Assembly (NCBI GenBank): GCA_043718695.1
Contig: JAYSVF010000080.1
Coordinates: 1-24,000, forward strand
Direction of reading: 5' to 3'
DNA length: 24,000 bases
From: Acidimicrobiia bacterium
GTDB taxonomy: Bacteria; Actinomycetota; Acidimicrobiia; Acidimicrobiales; JANYDT01
Part shown: one piece after another, positions 1-7,125 of the stretch
How the letters are laid out: the number at the start of each line of letters is the position of its first letter
Numbering within the stretch: position 1 is the first letter of the stretch
Program-made: the position numbers and the translations under genes
The notes under the pieces: generated by a model
What the model saw: only the letters and a program-made list of their open reading frames with translations
Told to the model about the DNA's origin: nothing
Database searches by the model: none

Positions 1-491
1 AATCGGTCTAGCCACTCAAGGCTCGTGATTTGGCGACCGGTTGCCTGATCTTCACCGAGACCCATCCAGTAGCCATTACCGGAAAGGGTTTCGTCCATGA
101 TCGAGCCCTCCCAGCAGACGATGAACGGCGCATCGAGTTCACCGTCGGCGGCCATGCGAAGGTTCTCGACCCATTCAGCTCCTGATTCGACCGAAACCAC
201 ACAGTGCACCAGCTCAACTCGCGGTAATCCCGGAATGATGCCGTTCATAAGGTCTTCGAGCTTCGGATGCGTCGCCCCGGTGACTGCGACCGAACAGCCG
301 TCACAAGACGCACCCACGATCCACAGGAGGTAAACCTTTTCCAACGGGCCGATATTGAGAACGTCATTGCGGGGCTCACGCAGCCGACTTCGCAATCCAA
401 TGGGCGCGAACGGATCATTCGGGTCAGTGATCAGGGCTTTGAGTGGGATTTCGACAACGTAGTTTGGATCAGCGACGGTGTACTGAGTCAT
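1..491 (-). CDS. [NiFe]-hydrogenase small subunit, N-terminal ~163 codons (gene continues beyond the left edge)
   Basis: Absent from the ORF track because there is no in-window stop. Hand translation from ATG at 491-489 (minus) gives MTQYTVADPNYVVEIPLKALITDPNDPFAPIGLRSRLREPRNDVLNIGPLEKVYLLWIVGASCDGCSVAVTGATHPKLEDLMNGIIPGLPRVELVHCVVSVESGAEWVENLRMAADGELDAPFIVCWEGSIMDETLSGNGYWMGLGEDQATGRQITSLEWLDR. The LW-x4-C-x-G-C block followed by an EGSI block is the N-terminal signature of NiFe small subunits. The ~50-aa N-terminal extension has no twin-arginine motif, suggesting a cytoplasmic-type enzyme (group 1h/2-like). The group cannot be fixed from this fragment. Confidence 0.85.
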   Translation of the reverse strand, partial: MTQYTVADPNYVVEIPLKALITDPNDPFAPIGLRSRLREPRNDVLNIGPLEKVYLLWIVGASCDGCSVAVTGATHPKLEDLMNGIIPGLPRVELVHCVVSVESGAEWVENLRMAADGELDAPFIVCWEGSIMDETLSGNGYWMGLGEDQATGRQITSLEWLDR

Positions 492-518
492 TTGTCGACC
501 TTGTTTGTTGGACGGTAC

Positions 519-531
519 CTGTAGAGTACAC
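519..531. promoter_or_regulatory. Perfect 6-1-6 palindrome CACATA-G-TATGTG in the divergent hydrogenase/accessory-operon intergenic region (candidate operator)
   Basis: Read directly from the sequence. On the minus strand it overlaps a TACTAT hexamer (TAnnnT-type -10 candidate) about 40 nt upstream of the small-subunit ATG. Function is inferred only. Confidence 0.3.
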
Positions 532-677
532 ATAGTATGTGACCGACGCCACCACCAATCACGTCTCATTCCAACCAAAATCTCAAGAACAAGAAACCCA
601 CACAAAGCGTCAACCGTTCAATATGTCTATGCAAGAGAGCCTCAACAGGTGACTCGCACTCGCAAAGGAGAGAGCAA

Positions 678-929
678 ATGGGAGGATGGATCGTCGGTTG
701 GTCGATTGGGGCTGTTGTCGTGCTCGCGCTTGTTGCGCTGTTGTTAGCAATGATTCGTGGGGCAAGCAGGGCGGCTGTGAAAGCTGGCAATATTTTGGCC
801 GCTCTTGAGCAAAGCCGAGATAACACCGCTGGGCTTTGGGCGGTTGACGTCACGAACAAAACGGCCCGTCGTATTACTAACGCCGCAACCGCCGCACGAC
901 TTCACATTGCATCGAAAGGAAACTCATGA
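678..929 (+). CDS. Small single-pass membrane protein (83 aa), unknown function
   Basis: AAGGAG sits 7 nt upstream of the ATG. N-terminal hydrophobic helix (WIVGWSIGAVVVLALVALLLAMI) followed by a predicted helical soluble part. The stop overlaps the next start (ATGA at 926-929). Confidence 0.7.
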   Translation: MGGWIVGWSIGAVVVLALVALLLAMIRGASRAAVKAGNILAALEQSRDNTAGLWAVDVTNKTARRITNAATAARLHIASKGNS

Positions 930-1210
930 GCACAAACGCCGCCTGGTGGCTCACGCTAGCGCTCGGTCTCGTCGTTGCGATCGTCGCCGTGATTTTGCTT
1001 GAAGTGTTTTACCGAAAAGTGCGGGCAGTCGAGGCCGGCACGTTGGCGATTTGGAACATGGGCAAAGAGGTTGCCCGAAACACCGCCACGACCTGGATGC
1101 TGGCACAAACACCCGAACGACTTGATCGCCTCACCGAAGAAGCATTACTTCACAACGCCCTACTCGACGATGCGTTGGCTTCCTCCGGCGTGGCTGTAGG
1201 AGGACGCTAA
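926..1210 (+). CDS. Small single-pass membrane protein (94 aa), apparent paralogue of the preceding gene
   Basis: GAAAGGA lies upstream of the start. N-terminal TM helix (WWLTLALGLVVAIVAVILL). The post-TM segment AVEAGTLAIWNMGKEVARNTATTW aligns by eye with AVKAGNILAALEQSRDNTAGLW of the previous protein. Confidence 0.7.
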   Translation: MSTNAAWWLTLALGLVVAIVAVILLEVFYRKVRAVEAGTLAIWNMGKEVARNTATTWMLAQTPERLDRLTEEALLHNALLDDALASSGVAVGGR

Positions 1211-1212
1211 CC

Positions 1213-1476
1213 ATGCGCACTCTCCTCATCACGCTCTCCGTTTTTGAAATCCTCCTCGTTGTCGGTGCATTGGCGTTCTACCTTTGGCGCATTGCCCGTT
1301 CGCTTCGCGCATCGTCGGCCAACTTGGCCAAAGTCACCTTTGGAGTTCGAGCTATCGAAACGCAGTGTGCTTCGATTGGCCCGTCTGTCGTGAAGGTCAA
1401 CTCTCAGCTCGTCGCGATAGCAGGAGCATTGGATGCCATCGCCACAAAAGCCGAAACCCTCGGCGCCGCCAACTGA
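1213..1476 (+). CDS. Small single-pass membrane protein (87 aa), same architecture as the two preceding genes
   Basis: AGGAGGA sits 8 nt upstream, and the ATG is 2 nt after the previous stop. N-terminal TM helix (LLITLSVFEILLVVGALAFYLW) followed by an Ala/Val/Ile-rich helical tail. Confidence 0.7.
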   Translation: MRTLLITLSVFEILLVVGALAFYLWRIARSLRASSANLAKVTFGVRAIETQCASIGPSVVKVNSQLVAIAGALDAIATKAETLGAAN

Positions 1477-1512: not shown

Positions 1513-1549
1513 GGGGAAGCCGCTCCGTGGGAGGTGAACCGGCTTCCTC
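1513..1549 (+). other. 10-bp-stem RNA hairpin (GGGGAAGCCG / CGGCTTCCTC, one G-U) with a 17-nt loop
   Basis: Arms at 1513-1522 and 1540-1549. The loop CTCCGTGGGAGGTGAAC contains a GGGAGG Shine-Dalgarno-like string and the GTG (1527) that opens the next ORF. No U-tract follows. Confidence 0.45.
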
Positions 1550-1970
1550 TCCGAAGACCCCCGCTCTAGCGGCATTGTATTGGCGAAGCGAAATTCTGCA
1601 AGTCATGTACTGGCTGCGAGGAGAAGGCTTTGGCGATATCGTCGATGCTGGACTGGTGGAACGGTTCCTCGGCGTTGACGCAACGATCGGCGTTACCTAT
1701 CTTGATCGCTTAGTAGAGGAAAATTACCTGGTCGCAGATGGGCCGTTCTATTCTCTGTCTGATCTGGGCCGAGCGGAAGGTGCCGCAGAATTCGCGTCTT
1801 CGTTTGCCGATCTAATGCGACCAACCCATGGCGAATGTGATGCTGATTGCTGGTGCCATCAATCAGCCGACGAAGCGGAAGCGTGTTCCGCCGCTCGCCG
1901 CACACACGATCACGATCTTCTCCACGAAGACTACAGAGAACTCGAAGAACCCCCCAAAGGCAGTTCATGA
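1527..1970 (+). CDS. Winged-helix-like protein with a C-terminal Cys/His-rich motif (putative metal/redox-sensing regulator); start codon uncertain
   Basis: The segment EILQVMYWLRGEGFGDIVDAGLVERFLGVDATIGVTYLDRLVEENYLVADGPFYSLSDLGR looks like a PadR/MarR-type wHTH. It is followed by THGECDADCWCHQSADEAEAC (4 Cys plus His). The stop overlaps the PadR start (ATGA). The GTG at 1527 lies inside a hairpin loop, so the true start may be downstream. Confidence 0.6.
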   Translation: MGGEPASSPKTPALAALYWRSEILQVMYWLRGEGFGDIVDAGLVERFLGVDATIGVTYLDRLVEENYLVADGPFYSLSDLGRAEGAAEFASSFADLMRPTHGECDADCWCHQSADEAEACSAARRTHDHDLLHEDYRELEEPPKGSS

Positions 1971-2407
1971 AATCCACCAACAAATTCACCTTCTACGAGC
2001 CCGATCTCGACGGTTCTCTCCCCCGCCACTTCCTCCGTTCTGCTCTTTTCATTTGCCTTCTCCCCGGACGTTCCCACGGCTACGAACTCCTAGAGCAGGT
2101 CAGACTTTTCGGCCTCTCCACCGCGGATCTCGCCGGCGTGTATCGAGCCATGAAGTCGATGGAACATGATGGTCTCGTCAATTCCGAATGGGAGAAGTCT
2201 GGGCTCGGACCACCGCGACGCATTTACGAGTTGACTCCATTAGGCCTGATCGCTGCTGACAAGCACCGTAACGCCCTCCGAACGGCTCGCGATCACCTTG
2301 ACTTGATGATCAGATCCGTTTCGCCTCTTCCCGTTGACCACAGGTTCCAACACGGACTACGTAGCGCTTCGGTTGGGCCACGGCCTTCGAGTCAAAAGAC
2401 CTCATGA
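1967..2407 (+). CDS. PadR-family transcriptional regulator
   Basis: From the internal ATG at 1967 (ATGA overlap with the previous stop). GYELLEQV...LAGVYRAMKSMEHDGLVNSEWEKSGLGPPRRIYELTPLG is the classic PadR wHTH signature. The longer 1847 start was rejected (Arg/Ser-rich, overlaps the upstream gene). Confidence 0.85.
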   Translation: MKSTNKFTFYEPDLDGSLPRHFLRSALFICLLPGRSHGYELLEQVRLFGLSTADLAGVYRAMKSMEHDGLVNSEWEKSGLGPPRRIYELTPLGLIAADKHRNALRTARDHLDLMIRSVSPLPVDHRFQHGLRSASVGPRPSSQKTS

Positions 2408-3183
2408 GAATCGCCATTGCTGGTAAAGGGGGCGCAGGCAAGACCACCTTCTCCGCTACCACTGCTCGCCTACTCGCTCGGCAGGGAATGAACGTCGTCG
2501 CAATCGATGCCGATACCAATCCCAACCTAGCCGCCGCGATGGGTTTCGACCTCGCCGCAGTCTCCAACGTAGCCATACTTCCCACCAACATCGTGTCACG
2601 TCGTCTCGACGGTTCCGCAGCGCTGCGCCTGCCACTCGATGAGGTTCTCGACGGCCATGCAGTTCGTGGGCCAGATGGAGTTCGTCTCGTTCGCATGGGA
2701 ATGCCCGACCACGCCCAAGAAGGTTGCCTTTGTTCGGCCCATGCCGCCGGATCAGCTCTACTCGCCGACCTTGGTTCGCAATCTGAAACCTGGACAATCA
2801 TGGACTTAGAAGCATCGCCCGAACACTTAAGTCGTGGCACTGCACGCCATGCCGACGCACTGATCCTTGTGGCCGAGCCGTATTTCCGATCCCTTGAAGC
2901 TGTGCGACTCCAGGCGCGCCTGGCGGCAGAACTCCCAAACGTAGTTGTTGGAGCGGTGGCCAATAAACTCCGATCGCCCGAAGATGCACAAGCCGTCCGC
3001 GAGTTTGTTGACAGTATTGGAATTCCCCTCTGGGGTGAGGTTCCCTGGTCCGATGACATTACCAACGCCGATCGCCTCCGAATGTCACTGATCGATGCCG
3101 CGCCGGCCAGCCCAGCAGTTACGGGCATGCGGAACACGTTACGTACACTTATGGCACTGAAAGCATCACGAGTATGTGTGTAG
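2404..3183 (+). CDS. CooC-type (MinD/ParA-fold) nickel-insertion accessory ATPase
   Basis: Deviant Walker A motif MRIAIAGKGGAGKTT. The EGCLCSAH motif corresponds to the CooC C-x-C metal site, and DLEASPEHLSRGT to CooC DMEAGIEHFGRGT. ATGA overlap with PadR. Confidence 0.85.
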   Translation: MRIAIAGKGGAGKTTFSATTARLLARQGMNVVAIDADTNPNLAAAMGFDLAAVSNVAILPTNIVSRRLDGSAALRLPLDEVLDGHAVRGPDGVRLVRMGMPDHAQEGCLCSAHAAGSALLADLGSQSETWTIMDLEASPEHLSRGTARHADALILVAEPYFRSLEAVRLQARLAAELPNVVVGAVANKLRSPEDAQAVREFVDSIGIPLWGEVPWSDDITNADRLRMSLIDAAPASPAVTGMRNTLRTLMALKASRVCV

Positions 3184-3473
3184 GAGTTCCCGCTAGAGTA
3201 ATCGGTCCGGTCGACATGACCACCCACGAGGCCATGGTCGAGTGCAATGGAGTCCGCCGCAGCGTCAACGTTTCCTTAGTCGTCGAAACCGATGGCACAG
3301 GACTCAACCTCGGAGACTGGGTTCTTTTGCACGTCGGTTTTGCCATGAGCATTCTCGACGAAGACGAGGCACGTCGCACCTTGGAGTTACTCACCCTCCT
3401 TGGCGGCGACAATGAAGACTTCGAAGCTTTCGCCGCATCGGCCGAATCTCTTAACGCCTCCGTAGAACCATGA
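3174..3473 (+). CDS. hypC: Hydrogenase maturation chaperone HypC/HupF
   Basis: N-terminal MCVGVP and GDWVLLHVGFAMSILDEDEA are HypC hallmarks. Overlaps the CooC gene by 10 nt. Confidence 0.9.
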   Translation: MCVGVPARVIGPVDMTTHEAMVECNGVRRSVNVSLVVETDGTGLNLGDWVLLHVGFAMSILDEDEARRTLELLTLLGGDNEDFEAFAASAESLNASVEP

Positions 3474-4165
3474 CCGTGATCGACCCCTGCGGTTCGTTGG
3501 CGGTCGTTGCGCGTCACCTTTCCAATCGCATCGCGCAGGGGTCCACCCTCTGGGCGGTTGCACCCGAATTGGACGACCATGCACACCACCTCGCCGTGGA
3601 GTTCGTTCACCCAGCTTCGGTGGGAGCGATGGCTGTACCGGCAGTGGCTGTCTGCGGTGAGGCAGACCGAATGCTCGAAAAGCTCCGAGCGCAAGTCCGC
3701 ACCGGCGACGTCATCGTCTCGATGGGATACACCGACACATTCATTGTCGAGCTGTCCAATCGTGCCGTGGCGTGGGGAGCCGATCACGTTCACCTTGGAT
3801 GGGGGCAGGACCCAATCGCCAGTCCTCTTGACCCTCGGTCATTCTGTGTTCAACTCGGCACCGACGGGTCTAGCGAACGGTACCTCACCCGTTCGTACCA
3901 TTTGCTATGGGAACTTACATGCATTTGTCTTCAGAATCGAAAGTTGACAAGTGCACCTCACGACGATGTTCTCGTCACTACCAGCTGTTCGGTGTGCGCC
4001 GATGAAGCGACCACAACGGAAGTGACGGAAGTACTGACGAACGATAGAGCGCGAGTTCGGACAGCCTGCGGTCCGGAAGTCATTGATATCAGCCTCCTCG
4101 ACAATGTTCGACAACATGATCTCGTACTGGTACATGCTGGAATCGCCCTTCGAAGGTTGTCGTGA
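3470..4165 (+). CDS. Fusion protein: degenerate SIS (GmhA-like) domain plus C-terminal HypC-like OB domain
   Basis: The N-terminal ~160 aa follows the GmhA/SIS layout (HHLAVEFVHP ~ QHFAAELVGRF; HLLWELTCICL ~ HLLILHCLCELI) but lacks the GNGGS loop. The C-terminal 57 aa, VCADEATTTEVTEVLTNDRARVRTACGPEVIDISLLDNVRQHDLVLVHAGIAL, resembles HypC (..A.V...G....V.L.L....D.VLVH.G.A.). ATGA overlap with hypC. Confidence 0.7.
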   Translation: MTVIDPCGSLAVVARHLSNRIAQGSTLWAVAPELDDHAHHLAVEFVHPASVGAMAVPAVAVCGEADRMLEKLRAQVRTGDVIVSMGYTDTFIVELSNRAVAWGADHVHLGWGQDPIASPLDPRSFCVQLGTDGSSERYLTRSYHLLWELTCICLQNRKLTSAPHDDVLVTTSCSVCADEATTTEVTEVLTNDRARVRTACGPEVIDISLLDNVRQHDLVLVHAGIALRRLS

Positions 4166-4166
4166 C

Positions 4167-4916
4167 ATGGCTACGAGCAACTCCGTGAACGGACCGAGCT
4201 TCTTATACCCTTTCCTAGACGCAATGCCATTAGATGAAGCGCAAACGCCACAACATTCCGCGGACAAATCGACAAAGCACCCGACTGAAACCCTTTTCAG
4301 CAATAGCGAGCTCGAGGAATTGGCTGCAGCCGCTCGCGTCAGCTGGACTACCGGCGAGGAGTTAGACAAGGAAACGGTTATCGCAAATGAACTACTGATT
4401 GACGAAGCAGCACGGTTGATCGTCGAGAGCACGCTTGGGTTTGGTCGGGTGTTCGTAATTGGCAATGGAGGAAGTGCCTGCGATGCCCAACGATTCGTGC
4501 GCTTGCTACAACCCTCAGTCGCGGTATCGTCGTTGATGGATTCGGTGGTCATCACCGCGCTCGCAAATGATGTCGGCGCCGACCGTATCTTCGATCGCCA
4601 AATCGAAACCTTTGCAAAGTCTCAGGATGTTGTCGTGGCATTCAGCACGAGCGGCACATCCACAAATGTTCTCAGCGCACTTGCACGAGCGAGGCGAAAG
4701 GGAGCATTTACCATCGTCTTTGCTGGCTACGGGGGTGCGGCACTTACCAACAATCCCGATGTAGATGTTTGCCTCGCCGTGGACTCATCGAGCGTTCACC
4801 GCATCCAAGAAGCCCAGGGTGCCCTTACGTTGACACTCGCCGATCGGGTTGGTATGCATCTAGAGGTACGGCGCGGCACTACAACGGACGAATCAGCTAG
4901 GACCGCTACGCCATGA
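4167..4916 (+). CDS. SIS-domain protein (phosphoheptose-isomerase/GmhA-like) with an N-terminal ~70-aa extension
   Basis: From the ATG 1 nt after the previous stop. VFVIGNGGSACDAQRF, ALANDVGADRIFDRQIE, VVVAFSTSGTSTNVLSAL and SVHRIQEAQ match SIS/GmhA motifs. Confidence 0.8.
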   Translation: MATSNSVNGPSFLYPFLDAMPLDEAQTPQHSADKSTKHPTETLFSNSELEELAAAARVSWTTGEELDKETVIANELLIDEAARLIVESTLGFGRVFVIGNGGSACDAQRFVRLLQPSVAVSSLMDSVVITALANDVGADRIFDRQIETFAKSQDVVVAFSTSGTSTNVLSALARARRKGAFTIVFAGYGGAALTNNPDVDVCLAVDSSSVHRIQEAQGALTLTLADRVGMHLEVRRGTTTDESARTATP

Positions 4917-6037
4917 AGTTCGTTGACGAATACCGCGATCCACAAACCGCCAAGCTTGCACTCAAACAAATTGAATCATTGGCAGGAGATCAACCGCTGA
5001 AATTTATGGAAGTCTGTGGCGGACACACGCACACGATTTACCGTCATGGGATCGAGCAGATTCTTCCGCCGAATATTGAGCTCGTCCACGGTCCGGGCTG
5101 CCCGGTGTGCGTGATCCCCATGGGTCGAGTTGATGATGCGATTGCCGTGGCGCAAACCCCTGGGGTGATCTTCACAACCTTCGGCGACATGCTCCGCGTA
5201 CCGGGATCAACCTCAACGCTATTAGAGGCGAAGGCCCGTGGGGCCGATGTCCGTATGGTCTACTCGCCCCTCGACGCACTTGAGTTGGCCCGACGAAACC
5301 CTGATAGCCAAGTCGTTTTCTTTGCTGTCGGCTTCGAGACCACAGCGCCCTCCACGGCAATCACTCTTCGCCAGGCCAAACGTGACGGCGTCAGCAATTT
5401 TTCGGTGTTCTGCAACCACGTCACCATCGTTCCCCCGTTGTTAGCCATCCTCGATAGTCCCGGCCTCGAACTCCACGGATTCCTTGGGCCCGGGCACGTG
5501 GCCACCGTCGTCGGCCTGCGTCCATTTCAATTCGTAAGCGAACGTTACAACAAGCCGATCGTGGTGGCAGGCTTCGAACCACTTGACATACTCCAAGGTG
5601 TGTCCATGCTCCTGCAGCAGCGGGACCAGGGCCGCTGCGAAGTGCAAAACCAATACGGTCGGGCCGTTCCACCTTCTGGCAACCCCCGAGCCCTTGAGGT
5701 TATGGCTGAGGTTTTTGAACTTCGTCCACATTTCGAATGGCGCGGGCTGGGTTTCATCCCGCAATCCGGACTCCGACTTAATCCAACGTACGCAGATTAT
5801 GACACCGAACAACGCTTCACGGTTCCTGGTGTGCGTATTGCCGACCCGAAAGCGTGCCAGTGCGGCGAAGTGTTAAAGGGAGCGATTCGGCCTTGGGAAT
5901 GCAAGGTGTTCGGAACAGCGTGCACCCCACAAACACCGATCGGTACGTGCATGGTTTCGTCAGAGGGTGCATGCGCCGCGTTCTACAACTACGGTCGACT
6001 CTCCCAGCGCCGCAACATTGCGGTCCGTTCCGCATGA
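4913..6037 (+). CDS. hypD: Hydrogenase maturation protein HypD
   Basis: Motifs MKFVDEYRD, CGGHTHTIYRHG, GPGCPVCV, VGFETT, and the C-terminal GTCMVSSEGACAA cysteine motif. Confidence 0.95.
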   Translation: MKFVDEYRDPQTAKLALKQIESLAGDQPLKFMEVCGGHTHTIYRHGIEQILPPNIELVHGPGCPVCVIPMGRVDDAIAVAQTPGVIFTTFGDMLRVPGSTSTLLEAKARGADVRMVYSPLDALELARRNPDSQVVFFAVGFETTAPSTAITLRQAKRDGVSNFSVFCNHVTIVPPLLAILDSPGLELHGFLGPGHVATVVGLRPFQFVSERYNKPIVVAGFEPLDILQGVSMLLQQRDQGRCEVQNQYGRAVPPSGNPRALEVMAEVFELRPHFEWRGLGFIPQSGLRLNPTYADYDTEQRFTVPGVRIADPKACQCGEVLKGAIRPWECKVFGTACTPQTPIGTCMVSSEGACAAFYNYGRLSQRRNIAVRSA

Positions 6038-7125
6038 GTGGCGACACAACCGTCGCAGCTAGCCACTCGCTGAACAACGGTCGGCGAGCGAAACCTCGGT
6101 TCACTGATCAGGTCATTACCATGGCCCACGGCGCGGGCGGTTTAGCCAGCGAGGCTCTTGTTGATTCGGTCTTTCGAACAGCATTCACCGACTCTGAACT
6201 GCTGCGTGCCGATGATGGTGCGGTTCTTGAACTTGATTCGTCGTTGTCTGGTTTGGTCGACCTTGTCATGACTACCGACTCCTTCGTTGTGCGACCCCGA
6301 CGATTTCCCGGCGGATCAATAGGTACACTTGCTATTTGCGGAACCGTGAACGATCTTTGCGTGATGGGCGCCAAACCACGATGGTTGTCGGTAGCCTTTG
6401 TGCTCGAAGAGGGCTTTGCCGTGGAAGAACTCAGAGCCATTGTTGCCGATATGGCTGAGATGGCCAACCGCAGTGGTGTCCGAGTTGTTGCGGGAGATAC
6501 CAAGGTGGTTGAACGCGGAGCAGCCGACGGTTGCTATGTGACAACCACAGGAATTGGCACTCGTGTCAAGCATCGAGCTTTGGGTGCAGAACAGGTGAAG
6601 GTTGGTGACTCTGTAATCGTTTCGGGAAGGCTGGGCGACCACGGCATGGCCGTCATGCTCGCCCGCGGCGATCTCGCACTGTCGGCCGACATCGAATCTG
6701 ACTGCGCACCTCTCAATGACCTGATCGAAGCTGTAGTTCTCGCGGCTCCCAATGTCCGCTGGATGCGTGACCCAACCCGTGGCGGCCTCGCCAGCGCGCT
6801 AAACGAACTGGTTCGAGCAAACAACCTATCGGTCAAACTGGAGGAAACTTCGCTTCCAGTCATGCCTGCCGTAGCTGGTGCGTGCGAGTTGTTAGGCATT
6901 GACCCGCTCTACGTGGCCAACGAGGGGAAGGTCGTGCTCGTGGTCCCACCCAACGAAGCGGACGCCGCGCTCGGGGCCCTCCGTTCCCATCCCCTTGGAT
7001 TGCATGCAGCAGTTATTGGGACCATCAACGCTGAACCCTCGCGGATCGTCATGGTCCGAACGGCGTTTGGCGGAGAGCGTATTGTTGACCTTCTCGTCGG
7101 TGACCCGCTCCCAAGAATCTGCTGA
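6034..7125 (+). CDS. hypE: Hydrogenase maturation protein HypE
   Basis: Start taken at the ATG overlapping the hypD stop (ATGA at 6034-6037). MAHGAGG, an AIR-synthase-like core, and the C-terminal PRIC motif. Confidence 0.93.
   Translation: MSGDTTVAASHSLNNGRRAKPRFTDQVITMAHGAGGLASEALVDSVFRTAFTDSELLRADDGAVLELDSSLSGLVDLVMTTDSFVVRPRRFPGGSIGTLAICGTVNDLCVMGAKPRWLSVAFVLEEGFAVEELRAIVADMAEMANRSGVRVVAGDTKVVERGAADGCYVTTTGIGTRVKHRALGAEQVKVGDSVIVSGRLGDHGMAVMLARGDLALSADIESDCAPLNDLIEAVVLAAPNVRWMRDPTRGGLASALNELVRANNLSVKLEETSLPVMPAVAGACELLGIDPLYVANEGKVVLVVPPNEADAALGALRSHPLGLHAAVIGTINAEPSRIVMVRTAFGGERIVDLLVGDPLPRIC

What the first reader, a model, noticed from the sequence alone, without database searches (positions are those of the whole stretch)
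678..1476. Trio of small single-pass membrane proteins leading the hydrogenase accessory operon
Three consecutive genes of 83-94 aa each encode one N-terminal TM helix plus a ~60-aa helical tail. Each has a good SD and they are translationally coupled (ATGA overlap, then a 2-nt gap). The first two look paralogous (AV[KE]AG..LA....NTA..W). They are the first genes of the operon transcribed divergently from the NiFe small-subunit gene, which lacks a Tat signal. Signal-less uptake-type hydrogenases need a way to associate with the membrane or quinone pool, and no cytochrome b or other anchor gene is in view. I do not recognise these proteins as any named Hyp/Hup/Hhy component.
Basis: inference. 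Interest (0 to 1): 0.6.

Follow-up and report, generated by a model that had tools for sequence, protein, structure and literature searches.

The report
Known-type hydrogenase membrane-anchor mini-proteins
The three small membrane-protein genes are real and always travel with this oxygen-tolerant hydrogenase, but they belong to the already published (never tested) 'HylTM' set of five mini-proteins thought to hold air-scavenging hydrogenases at the cell membrane; the other two members lie on another contig of the same genome.

Summary
Observation confirmed. Three coupled ORFs (83, 94, 87 aa) each have a Shine-Dalgarno site and one N-terminal membrane helix, and are under purifying selection (dN/dS 0.23-0.31). 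They are not unnamed orphans. Profile comparisons match them one-to-one, in order, to the first three of five small single-helix genes lying between hydrogenase small- and large-subunit genes in related Actinomycetota. That layout is the published HylTM1-5 architecture of group 1l [NiFe]-hydrogenases. The window's genome also encodes TM4- and TM5-like genes beside hypF on contig C200, so the set is a quintet split 3+2. In 80 species loci the three genes always occur together. The hydrogenase is within 10 kb wherever the contig allows, across three different gene orders. All 21 sampled Actinomycetota genomes with this hydrogenase clade carry the family; about 41 with only canonical 1h hydrogenase have no copy beside it. 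A complex model places the conserved P2 and P3 motifs on the small subunit (ipSAE 0.65; best control 0.00). A membrane-docking stalk is the best reading, but it is untested. Divergent copies sit in form I CO-dehydrogenase clusters. This scan found the same cassette earlier on other genomes. Verdict: new member of a known, predicted-only kind.

The parts
678..929 (+). P1, 83 aa, single N-terminal TM helix; HylTM1-like
   Evidence: ORF and SD. TM at residues 5-23. hhalign of the P1 profile against TM1 of an hhyS-5TM-hhyL locus: 96.4%, E 1e-9. dN/dS 0.31.
926..1210 (+). P2, 94 aa, single N-terminal TM helix continuing as one long helix; HylTM2-like
   Evidence: ORF. TM at 9-27. AF2 models one helix, 3-86. 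Profile against TM2: 97.4%, E 9.6e-12; against TM4: 90%, E 1.4e-6. 228 homologues. dN/dS 0.23.
1061..1120 (+). P2 residues 46-65, invariant VARNTATTWML.QT motif; predicted contact with the small subunit
   Evidence: Invariant columns in A1 and A7. Interface residues in the complex model. Interface conservation 0.80 against 0.64 for the rest.
1213..1476 (+). P3, 87 aa, single N-terminal TM helix (conserved Glu12 inside it) plus two cytoplasmic helices; HylTM3-like, weakly DUF948-like
   Evidence: ORF. TM at 4-22. AF2 helices 2-51 and 56-85. Profile against TM3: 99.3%, E 8e-21; against TM5: 96%, E 4e-9. DUF948 hit in 17 of 26 family members, below Pfam's cut-off.
1327..1374 (+). P3 residues 39-54, invariant KVTFGVRAIETQC motif; predicted contact with the small subunit
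   Evidence: Invariant columns. Interface residues in the complex model. Conservation 0.87 against 0.65.
3..491 (-). N-terminal 163 aa of the [NiFe]-hydrogenase small subunit (HylS/HhyS type), cut by the contig end; no Tat motif; CDGC proximal-cluster motif
   Evidence: 92% identical to residues 1-163 of a relative's 407-aa small subunit. NCBIfam small-subunit hits. No RR in the first 70 aa. Family best matches 5AA5 HofK, which has CDGD at this position.
492..677 (.). Divergent intergenic region between the small-subunit gene and P1
   Evidence: Read from the sequence. No sigma-70 consensus match was found; promoter elements were not otherwise studied.
1527..7125 (+). Co-oriented downstream genes: wHTH, PadR, CooC-like ATPase, HypC, split SIS pair, HypD, HypE
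   Evidence: Pfam and NCBIfam. Conserved behind the trio in most of 80 loci: wHTH 75, PadR 72, CooC 67, HypC 61. In the other gene orders the trio separates from them.

Best explanation
P1, P2 and P3 are the HylTM1-, HylTM2- and HylTM3-type members of a five-protein set of single-pass membrane proteins. This set accompanies one clade of cytoplasmic, O2-tolerant uptake [NiFe]-hydrogenases: group 1l-type, sister to canonical group 1h. Each protein puts a short N-terminus outside, crosses the membrane once, and extends a roughly 60-residue helical stalk into the cytoplasm (inferred from the positive-inside rule and AF2). The conserved cytoplasmic motifs of P2 (VARNTATTWML) and P3 (KVTFGVRAIETQC) grip the N-terminal flavodoxin-like domain of the small subunit (modelled only). 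This holds the soluble (small + large subunit) enzyme at the inner face of the membrane, so that its electrons can reach menaquinone or the respiratory chain (inferred). In this genome the set is split. TM1-3 head the divergent regulator and hyp operon. TM4 and TM5 lie beside hypF on contig C200, which in relatives is about 7 kb beyond hhyL.
For: Homology with the S-5TM-L (Hyl) architecture:
- Five loci (L148-L150, L157, L158) have five 85-109-aa single-TM ORFs between the small- and large-subunit genes. L157 also has Rieske and HycI genes downstream, as published for Hyl.
- P1, P2 and P3 match TM1, TM2 and TM3 in order.

Linkage to the hydrogenase:
- The three genes are together in 80 of 80 species loci. 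HhyS is within 10 kb in 74 and HhyL in 71; the remainder are contig ends or a 14-kb gap.
- Linkage survives three gene orders: divergent; 7.5 kb downstream on the same strand as a quintet; directly upstream of hhyS.
- In a sample of 401 Actinomycetota genomes, 21 of 21 with this HhyL clade have the family. The roughly 41 with only canonical 1h (41-46% identity) have no copy beside the hydrogenase.
- In a tree, all 76 TM-associated HhyL sequences form one clade (SH-aLRT 100) against 6 TM-less 1h sequences.

The full set in this genome:
- TM4- and TM5-like genes are present in the window's genome and in exactly the relatives that have P2.

Complex model:
- ipSAE 0.65 against a best control of 0.00. 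That mark was reached by 58 of 80 solved complexes and 2 of 110 mismatched pairs.
- The contacts fall on the most conserved residues of P2, P3 and HhyS.

Literature:
- Membrane association of these signal-less enzymes is observed but unexplained (PMC7174314; bioRxiv 10.1101/769216).
- HylTM1-5 have been proposed and AlphaFold-modelled as the anchor (bioRxiv 10.1101/2020.08.06.239558; PMC13554262).
Against: - No experiment exists for any member.
- The complex model omitted the large subunit. Its calibration holds only roughly for custom alignments and four chains.
- The small-subunit residues contacted are also largely conserved in TM-less HofK, so they are not clade-specific.
- P1 makes only two contacts, and a trio-only model gave no support (0.17).
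- The modelled site is on the N-terminal domain. By my inference this is the face opposite the large subunit. The published Hyl model instead puts the helices near the C-terminal extension and the distal cluster (PMC13554262).
- In this genome both sub-sets sit among maturation genes (hyp, CooC-like, hypF), and in CO-dehydrogenase clusters among coxD/E and xdhC. A role in assembly is therefore not excluded.
- H. roseosalivarius HylTM sequences were not on hand, so identity with the named proteins rests on architecture plus homology to actinobacterial S-5TM-L loci.
Confidence: 0.65

Rival explanations
1. The proteins are membrane-bound assembly or maturation scaffolds. They hold the apo-enzyme, or metal-delivery factors such as the CooC-like ATPases and Hyp proteins, at the membrane during cofactor insertion, and are not part of the working enzyme.
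For: In the window the trio heads the regulator, CooC and hyp operon. TM4 and TM5 lie between hypF and two CooC-like ATPase genes. The CO-dehydrogenase version lies between coxG and coxE/coxD/xdhC maturation genes.
Against: In other lineages the same genes sit between, or directly before, the structural genes hhyS and hhyL, away from hyp genes. The model contacts a folded small-subunit surface through the most conserved residues.
Confidence: 0.15
2. The proteins form an active quinone or electron conduit: a helical tube that carries menaquinone to the distal cluster, as HucM does for Huc, rather than a passive tether.
For: AF2 models long continuous helices, P2 3-86. The published AlphaFold model describes tube-like bundles near the distal cluster (PMC13554262). 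The same module accompanies CO dehydrogenase, whose partner CoxG shuttles menaquinone (bioRxiv 10.1101/2024.01.09.574806). P3 has a conserved Glu inside its TM helix.
Against: There are no redox-cofactor motifs in P1-P3. The trio-only assembly is unsupported. By inference the modelled contact is on the N-terminal domain, not beside the distal cluster. Nothing was tested for lipid or quinone binding.
Confidence: 0.12
3. The proteins are general DUF948-like membrane or stress proteins that are merely co-regulated with trace-gas enzymes during starvation, with no physical link to the hydrogenase.
For: P3 and TM5 resemble DUF948 weakly. A few family members lie away from any hydrogenase or CO-dehydrogenase gene within 8 kb (L161-L164, L167, L121).
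Against: The hydrogenase clade and the family coincide in 21 of 21 genomes, with adjacency maintained through rearrangements. The complex model passes its controls. DUF948 scores are below Pfam's cut-off.
Confidence: 0.05

Closest known systems
[quoted passage not shown]
   Same: Short single-helix membrane proteins encoded with a signal-less, O2-tolerant uptake hydrogenase. P1, P2 and P3 are homologous, in order, to TM1, TM2 and TM3 of actinobacterial loci with that exact S-5TM-L architecture. The proposed role is the same, a membrane anchor.
   Different: Here the genes are not between the subunit genes. The set is split: three are divergent from hylS at the head of the hyp operon, and two sit beside hypF on another contig. 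Direct comparison with the H. roseosalivarius proteins could not be run.
Five-gene small-TM module after coxG in form I CO-dehydrogenase clusters
   Same: The same two protein families occur in the order TM4-TM5-TM1-TM2-TM3. P2-profile E-values are 1e-9 to 1e-14, and P1- and P3-like neighbours are present.
   Different: The partner enzyme is Mo-Cu CO dehydrogenase (AYRCSFR motif), not a hydrogenase. Sequences are only about 30-40% identical to the window's proteins.
HucM, membrane-associated stalk of the group 2a hydrogenase Huc (PMC10017518)
   Same: A helical stalk links a cytosolic atmospheric-H2 oxidiser to the membrane and to menaquinone. This is the same problem solved by a helical stalk.
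   Different: No sequence relation was detected. HucM is one protein forming a tetrameric tube, without the five-paralogue single-pass arrangement.
DUF948 (PF06103; YoxC/YtxG-like small membrane-anchored helical proteins)
   Same: An N-terminal TM helix followed by a helical tail. Weak hits for P3 family members and for the TM5-like protein.
   Different: All scores are below the gathering cut-off (best 23.5 against 37.2 bits). DUF948 proteins have no reported hydrogenase link.
Cytochrome b anchors of classical membrane-bound group 1 hydrogenases (HyaC/HoxZ type)
   Same: They couple an uptake hydrogenase to the quinone pool.
   Different: Those are four-helix haem proteins serving Tat-exported periplasmic enzymes. 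P1-P3 have one helix, no haem ligand pattern, and serve a cytoplasmic enzyme.

Membership tests
HylTM (small TM proteins of group 1l hydrogenase clusters) | Short protein (about 80-110 aa) with one predicted transmembrane helix | tested here: met
   83, 94 and 87 aa, each with one hydrophobic 19-mer. AF2 models helices.
HylTM (small TM proteins of group 1l hydrogenase clusters) | Sequence homology to the five ORFs that separate the small- and large-subunit genes | tested here: met
   hhalign against L148 TM1-5: P1-TM1 96.4%, P2-TM2 97.4%, P3-TM3 99.3%, P2-TM4 90%, P3-TM5 96%.
HylTM (small TM proteins of group 1l hydrogenase clusters) | Five genes placed between hylS and hylL | tested here: not met
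   The window has three genes divergent from the small-subunit gene. Two more lie on contig C200. The paper says the interposed arrangement occurs 'often', not always.
HylTM (small TM proteins of group 1l hydrogenase clusters) | Homology to the named H. roseosalivarius HylTM1-5 sequences | not testable with these tools
Group 1l [NiFe]-hydrogenase (partner enzyme) | Large subunit in a clade separate from group 1h, with a changed ligand of the proximal cluster in the small subunit | tested here: inconclusive
   The HhyL clade is 51-71% identical to S-5TM-L enzymes and 41-46% to canonical 1h. It forms one clade with them. The small subunit has CDGC where HofK has CDGD. No HydDB classification or 1l reference sequence was available.
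Group 1h (Hhy/HofKG type) | Adjacent hhyS-hhyL without TM genes, and a CDGD proximal-cluster motif as in 5AA5 | tested here: not met
   The best PDB hit is 5AA5, but the motif is CDGC. The clade is split from TM-less 1h by a 100%-supported long branch.
DUF948 (PF06103) | Score at or above Pfam's gathering cut-off | tested here: not met
   The window's P3 gives no hit. 17 of 26 relatives hit with a best E of 0.004. The TM5-like protein scores 23.5 bits against a cut-off of 37.2.

The most novel reading that the evidence does not exclude
The five-protein cassette is a modular, exchangeable membrane stalk shared by two unrelated trace-gas oxidoreductases, Hyl-type hydrogenase and form I Mo-Cu CO dehydrogenase. 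It is built from two separable sub-modules, TM1-3 and TM4-5, which this genome encodes at opposite ends of the hydrogenase supercluster. TM2 and TM3 motifs provide the enzyme-specific grip, and the bundle may also guide menaquinone to the enzyme.
Probability: 0.35. Interest if true: 0.7.

Novelty: new member of a known kind. Interest (0 to 1): 0.35.

Why it matters
How cytoplasmic, signal-less high-affinity hydrogenases attach to the membrane and pass electrons to the respiratory chain is an acknowledged open point (PMC7174314; bioRxiv 10.1101/769216). The HylTM idea has so far rested only on gene order and models. This locus adds four things:
- The family follows one hydrogenase clade strictly through several gene orders.
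- The set can be split 3+2.
- There are named, conserved motifs and a predicted docking surface that can be mutated.
- The same module serves CO dehydrogenase.

It does not change the published picture; it makes that picture easier to test.

Tried and rejected
- Pfam and NCBIfam scans of the three proteins gave only noise from the TM helix.
- The ESM Atlas returned unnamed actinobacterial clusters; the nearest named one was DUF948 at 0.69, a lead only.
- A trio-only complex model scored 0.17, below the mark. It counts neither for nor against binding.
- No RNA run holds the locus; only sediment and freshwater DNA metagenomes do. Expression is therefore untested.
- No terminator or sigma-70 consensus stands out around the trio.
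- The hairpin after P3 (1513-1549) folds no better than shuffles (z -0.46).
- Apparent fusion proteins (P0316, P0325, P0299) have Arg/Pro-rich or garbled linkers. I treat them as frameshift or gene-calling artefacts, not Rosetta-stone evidence.
- P0304 (1724 aa, repeats) is a false positive of the P2 profile.
- I first filed the enzyme as group 1h because its best PDB hit is 5AA5. I dropped this after the identity split, the CDGC motif and the tree.
- Fold searches were not run because single long helices give meaningless matches.

Full report
**What is in the window.** The + strand carries three consecutive ORFs: 678-929 (P1, 83 aa), 926-1210 (P2, 94 aa) and 1213-1476 (P3, 87 aa). AAAGGAG, AAAGGAA and GGAGGA lie upstream of the three starts. 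The P1/P2 junction is an ATGA overlap and the P2/P3 junction a 2-nt gap. Each protein has a single hydrophobic 19-mer near its N-terminus (Kyte-Doolittle 2.5-2.8). There are 0-1 K/R before it and three K/R in the next 15 residues, which by the positive-inside rule implies N-out/C-in (inference). AlphaFold2 models P2 as one helix spanning residues 3-86 (pLDDT 86.5) and P3 as helices 2-51 and 56-85 (pLDDT 80.1).

The divergent gene at 491..3 encodes the first 163 residues of a [NiFe]-hydrogenase small subunit. It has no twin-arginine motif and is cut because the window starts at base 1 of contig C376 of a 79.7%-complete MAG.

**The genes are real.** P2, P3 and P1 have 228, 192 and 32 homologues in the large protein collection, all unnamed. 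Several columns are invariant: VARNTATTWML.QT in P2, KVTFGVRAIETQC in P3, and NT..LW..(x)4N in P1. Median dN/dS across species loci is 0.31, 0.23 and 0.27 for P1, P2 and P3, against 0.15 for the small subunit. P1 and P2 are probably paralogues (hhalign 84%, E 7e-6); P3 is a separate family. No Pfam or NCBIfam model reaches its threshold. P3 relatives touch DUF948 weakly (17 of 26, best E 0.004).

**Linkage to the hydrogenase.** A scan of one genome per species returned 99 relatives of P2, of which 80 loci were kept. Almost all are Acidimicrobiia, with a few other Actinomycetota.
- In all 80 loci P1, P2 and P3 lie together in the same order.
- The small subunit is within 10 kb in 74 loci and the large subunit in 71.
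- The exceptions are contig ends, plus one complete chromosome where hhyL lies 14 kb away.

Three gene orders occur:
- (a) Divergent from hhyS-hhyL and leading wHTH-PadR-CooC-hypC..hypE, as in the window.
- (b) About 7.5 kb downstream of hhySL on the same strand, away from the regulators.
- (c) Directly upstream of hhyS on the same strand.

Linkage that survives these rearrangements points to the structural genes, not to the hyp genes.

**What they are.** A P2 profile finds only 255 clusters (at 50% identity) among 1.84 billion proteins. Looking up distant members led to loci where the small- and large-subunit genes are separated by five single-helix ORFs of 85-109 aa (L157, L158). L157 has Rieske and HycI genes downstream. 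The same layout occurs in three sampled Actinomycetota genomes (L148-L150).

This is the architecture published for group 1l [NiFe]-hydrogenases: HylS, HylTM1-5, HylL, HylE (Rieske) and HupD. There the five proteins were proposed as a membrane anchor (bioRxiv 10.1101/2020.08.06.239558) and later AlphaFold-modelled as tube-like scaffolds (PMC13554262).

Profile comparisons match the window's proteins to these ORFs in order:
- P1-TM1: 96.4%, E 1e-9.
- P2-TM2: 97.4%, E 9.6e-12.
- P3-TM3: 99.3%, E 8e-21.
- TM4 resembles P2 (90%, E 1.4e-6) and TM5 resembles P3 (96%, E 4e-9).

I could not fetch the H. roseosalivarius proteins themselves. Equivalence with the named HylTM therefore rests on architecture plus this homology.

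**The trio is three of five.** A search of all small TM ORFs showed that gene orders (b) and (c) carry five genes, in the order TM4-TM5-TM1-TM2-TM3. The window's own genome has a TM4-like gene (C200:6021-6269, 82 aa) and a TM5-like gene (C200:6312-6572, 86 aa; DUF948 E 6.6e-5). They are flanked by hypF and two CooC-like ATPase genes.

The TM4-like gene occurs in exactly the relatives that have P2. In those with long contigs it lies about 7 kb beyond hhyL on the opposite strand. Contig C199 carries the end of hhyL and its downstream genes. C376, C199 and C200 are therefore probably pieces of one supercluster (inference).

**Which hydrogenase.** The relatives' large subunit matches 5AA5 (group 1h) best in the PDB (E 1e-150). 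Sampled genomes nevertheless split in two:
- Clade A is 51-71% identical to the relative's large subunit used as query (93% identical to the window genome's C199 fragment) and aligned from residue 1.
- Clade B is 41-46% identical, aligned from about residue 55, and has hhyS-hhyL adjacent with no TM genes.

All 21 clade-A genomes in a 401-genome Actinomycetota sample have the P2 family. Two of them, G475 and G542, are unpublished; the count is 19 of 19 without them. Loci L151 and L152, and the two tree rows from them, also rest on G475.

Of about 41 genomes with only clade B, four have a P2-like gene (G566, G578, G626, G664), and never beside the hydrogenase. In a tree, 76 TM-associated large subunits form one clade (SH-aLRT 100) against six TM-less ones (midpoint root only). 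The small subunit has CDGC where HofK has CDGD. [quoted passage not shown] I read the enzyme as 1l-type, but this is not formally classified.

**How it may work.** A four-chain model was built from P1, P2, P3 and the full small subunit of a relative, each with a 30-31-row alignment. It gave ipSAE 0.65 (runs 0.69, 0.65, 0.62) against 0.00 for all three controls. That mark was reached by 58 of 80 solved complexes and 2 of 110 mismatched pairs, and the tool notes that these counts hold only roughly here.
- Contacts on the small proteins: P2 residues 46-65, P3 residues 39-54, and P1 residues 54 and 57.
- Contacts on the small subunit: residues 49, 117-122, 169, 205-211 and 235-247.
- These positions are more conserved than the rest: 0.80 against 0.64, 0.87 against 0.65, and 0.94 against 0.79.

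From the known flavodoxin-like fold of small-subunit N-domains, these segments sit at the N-terminal ends of the strands whose C-terminal ends carry the proximal-cluster cysteines. That is the face away from the large subunit. This is my inference and was not checked on coordinates.

The contact motifs begin 10-20 residues after the TM helices, so the enzyme would sit close to the membrane. A trio-only model gave no support (0.17) and counts neither way.

Shown: homology, linkage, topology signals. Modelled: the interface. Inferred: tethering and electron delivery to quinone.

**Beyond hydrogenase.** In the class sample, eight genomes have divergent P2-like genes but no such hydrogenase was found in them. 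In these and three further genomes, five small TM genes follow coxG inside a cluster of coxS, coxL (with the AYRCSFR motif of form I CO dehydrogenase), xdhC, coxE and coxD. Four or five further loci have them within a few kb of coxS/coxL. The CoxG paper I read does not mention them.

Earlier reports of this scan describe the same CO-dehydrogenase cassette, and its HylTM kinship, on other genomes. I reached the same reading independently before seeing them. A few copies lie away from either enzyme (L161-L164, L167, L121).

**Verdict.** New here are:
- the 3+2 split arrangement in Acidimicrobiia;
- strict clade-level co-occurrence;
- a specific modelled interface.

Rivals that remain open are a maturation scaffold and an active quinone conduit.

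Noticed in passing
Contig C200 of the same genome (L174:6021-6269 and 6312-6572); outside the window: TM4-like (82 aa) and TM5-like (86 aa, DUF948 E 6.6e-5) paralogues complete the five-protein set. They are flanked by hypF (2525-5152, minus strand) and two CooC-like ATPase genes.
   Followed up: yes
L106-L114, L169, L171 (other Actinomycetota genomes): The same five small-TM families, in the order TM4-TM5-TM1-TM2-TM3, follow coxG inside form I CO-dehydrogenase clusters (CoxL motif AYRCSFR). No clade-A hydrogenase was found in nearly all of these genomes (one has only a short fragment).
   Followed up: partly
window 3-491 (-); alignment A4: The small subunit has CDGC at the proximal-cluster motif where the solved group 1h enzyme (5AA5 HofK) has CDGD. 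It also has N- and C-terminal extensions of roughly 40 and 30 residues relative to HofK.
   Followed up: partly
window 1527-2407 (+) and 80 related loci: The wHTH and PadR pair follows the trio in 75 and 72 of 80 loci. It stays next to hhyS when the TM genes move elsewhere (gene order b), so it is tied to the hydrogenase promoter region rather than to the TM genes.
   Followed up: partly
P0363, P0369, P0378, P0393, P0405, P0417; L148:6020-6319: A subgroup of TM2-type proteins ends in a Cys-rich tail (H-A-x2-C-P-x-C-P-x-C or ..HALDCPG) that is absent from the window's P2. It may bind a metal; this was not studied.
   Followed up: no
window 1213-1476, P3 residue 12 (nt 1246-1248): A Glu inside the predicted transmembrane helix of P3 is invariant or nearly so across the family (E12 in A2 and A6).
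   Followed up: no
L161-L164 (G578), L167 (G664), L121, L159: Some family members, including a quintet next to an NAD-glutamate dehydrogenase gene and four separate copies in one genome, have no hydrogenase or CO-dehydrogenase gene within about 8 kb.
   Followed up: no
G475, G771, G694, G607, G793 (phylum sample): Several genomes carry two or three clade-A large-subunit genes, and at least G475, G771 and G694 have a separate TM-gene set beside a second one. G475 is unpublished, so claims on it need the depositors' permission.
   Followed up: no
window 1513-1549: The hairpin between P3 and the next gene is not more stable than shuffled sequence (z -0.46), and no terminator-like site follows the trio.
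   Followed up: partly
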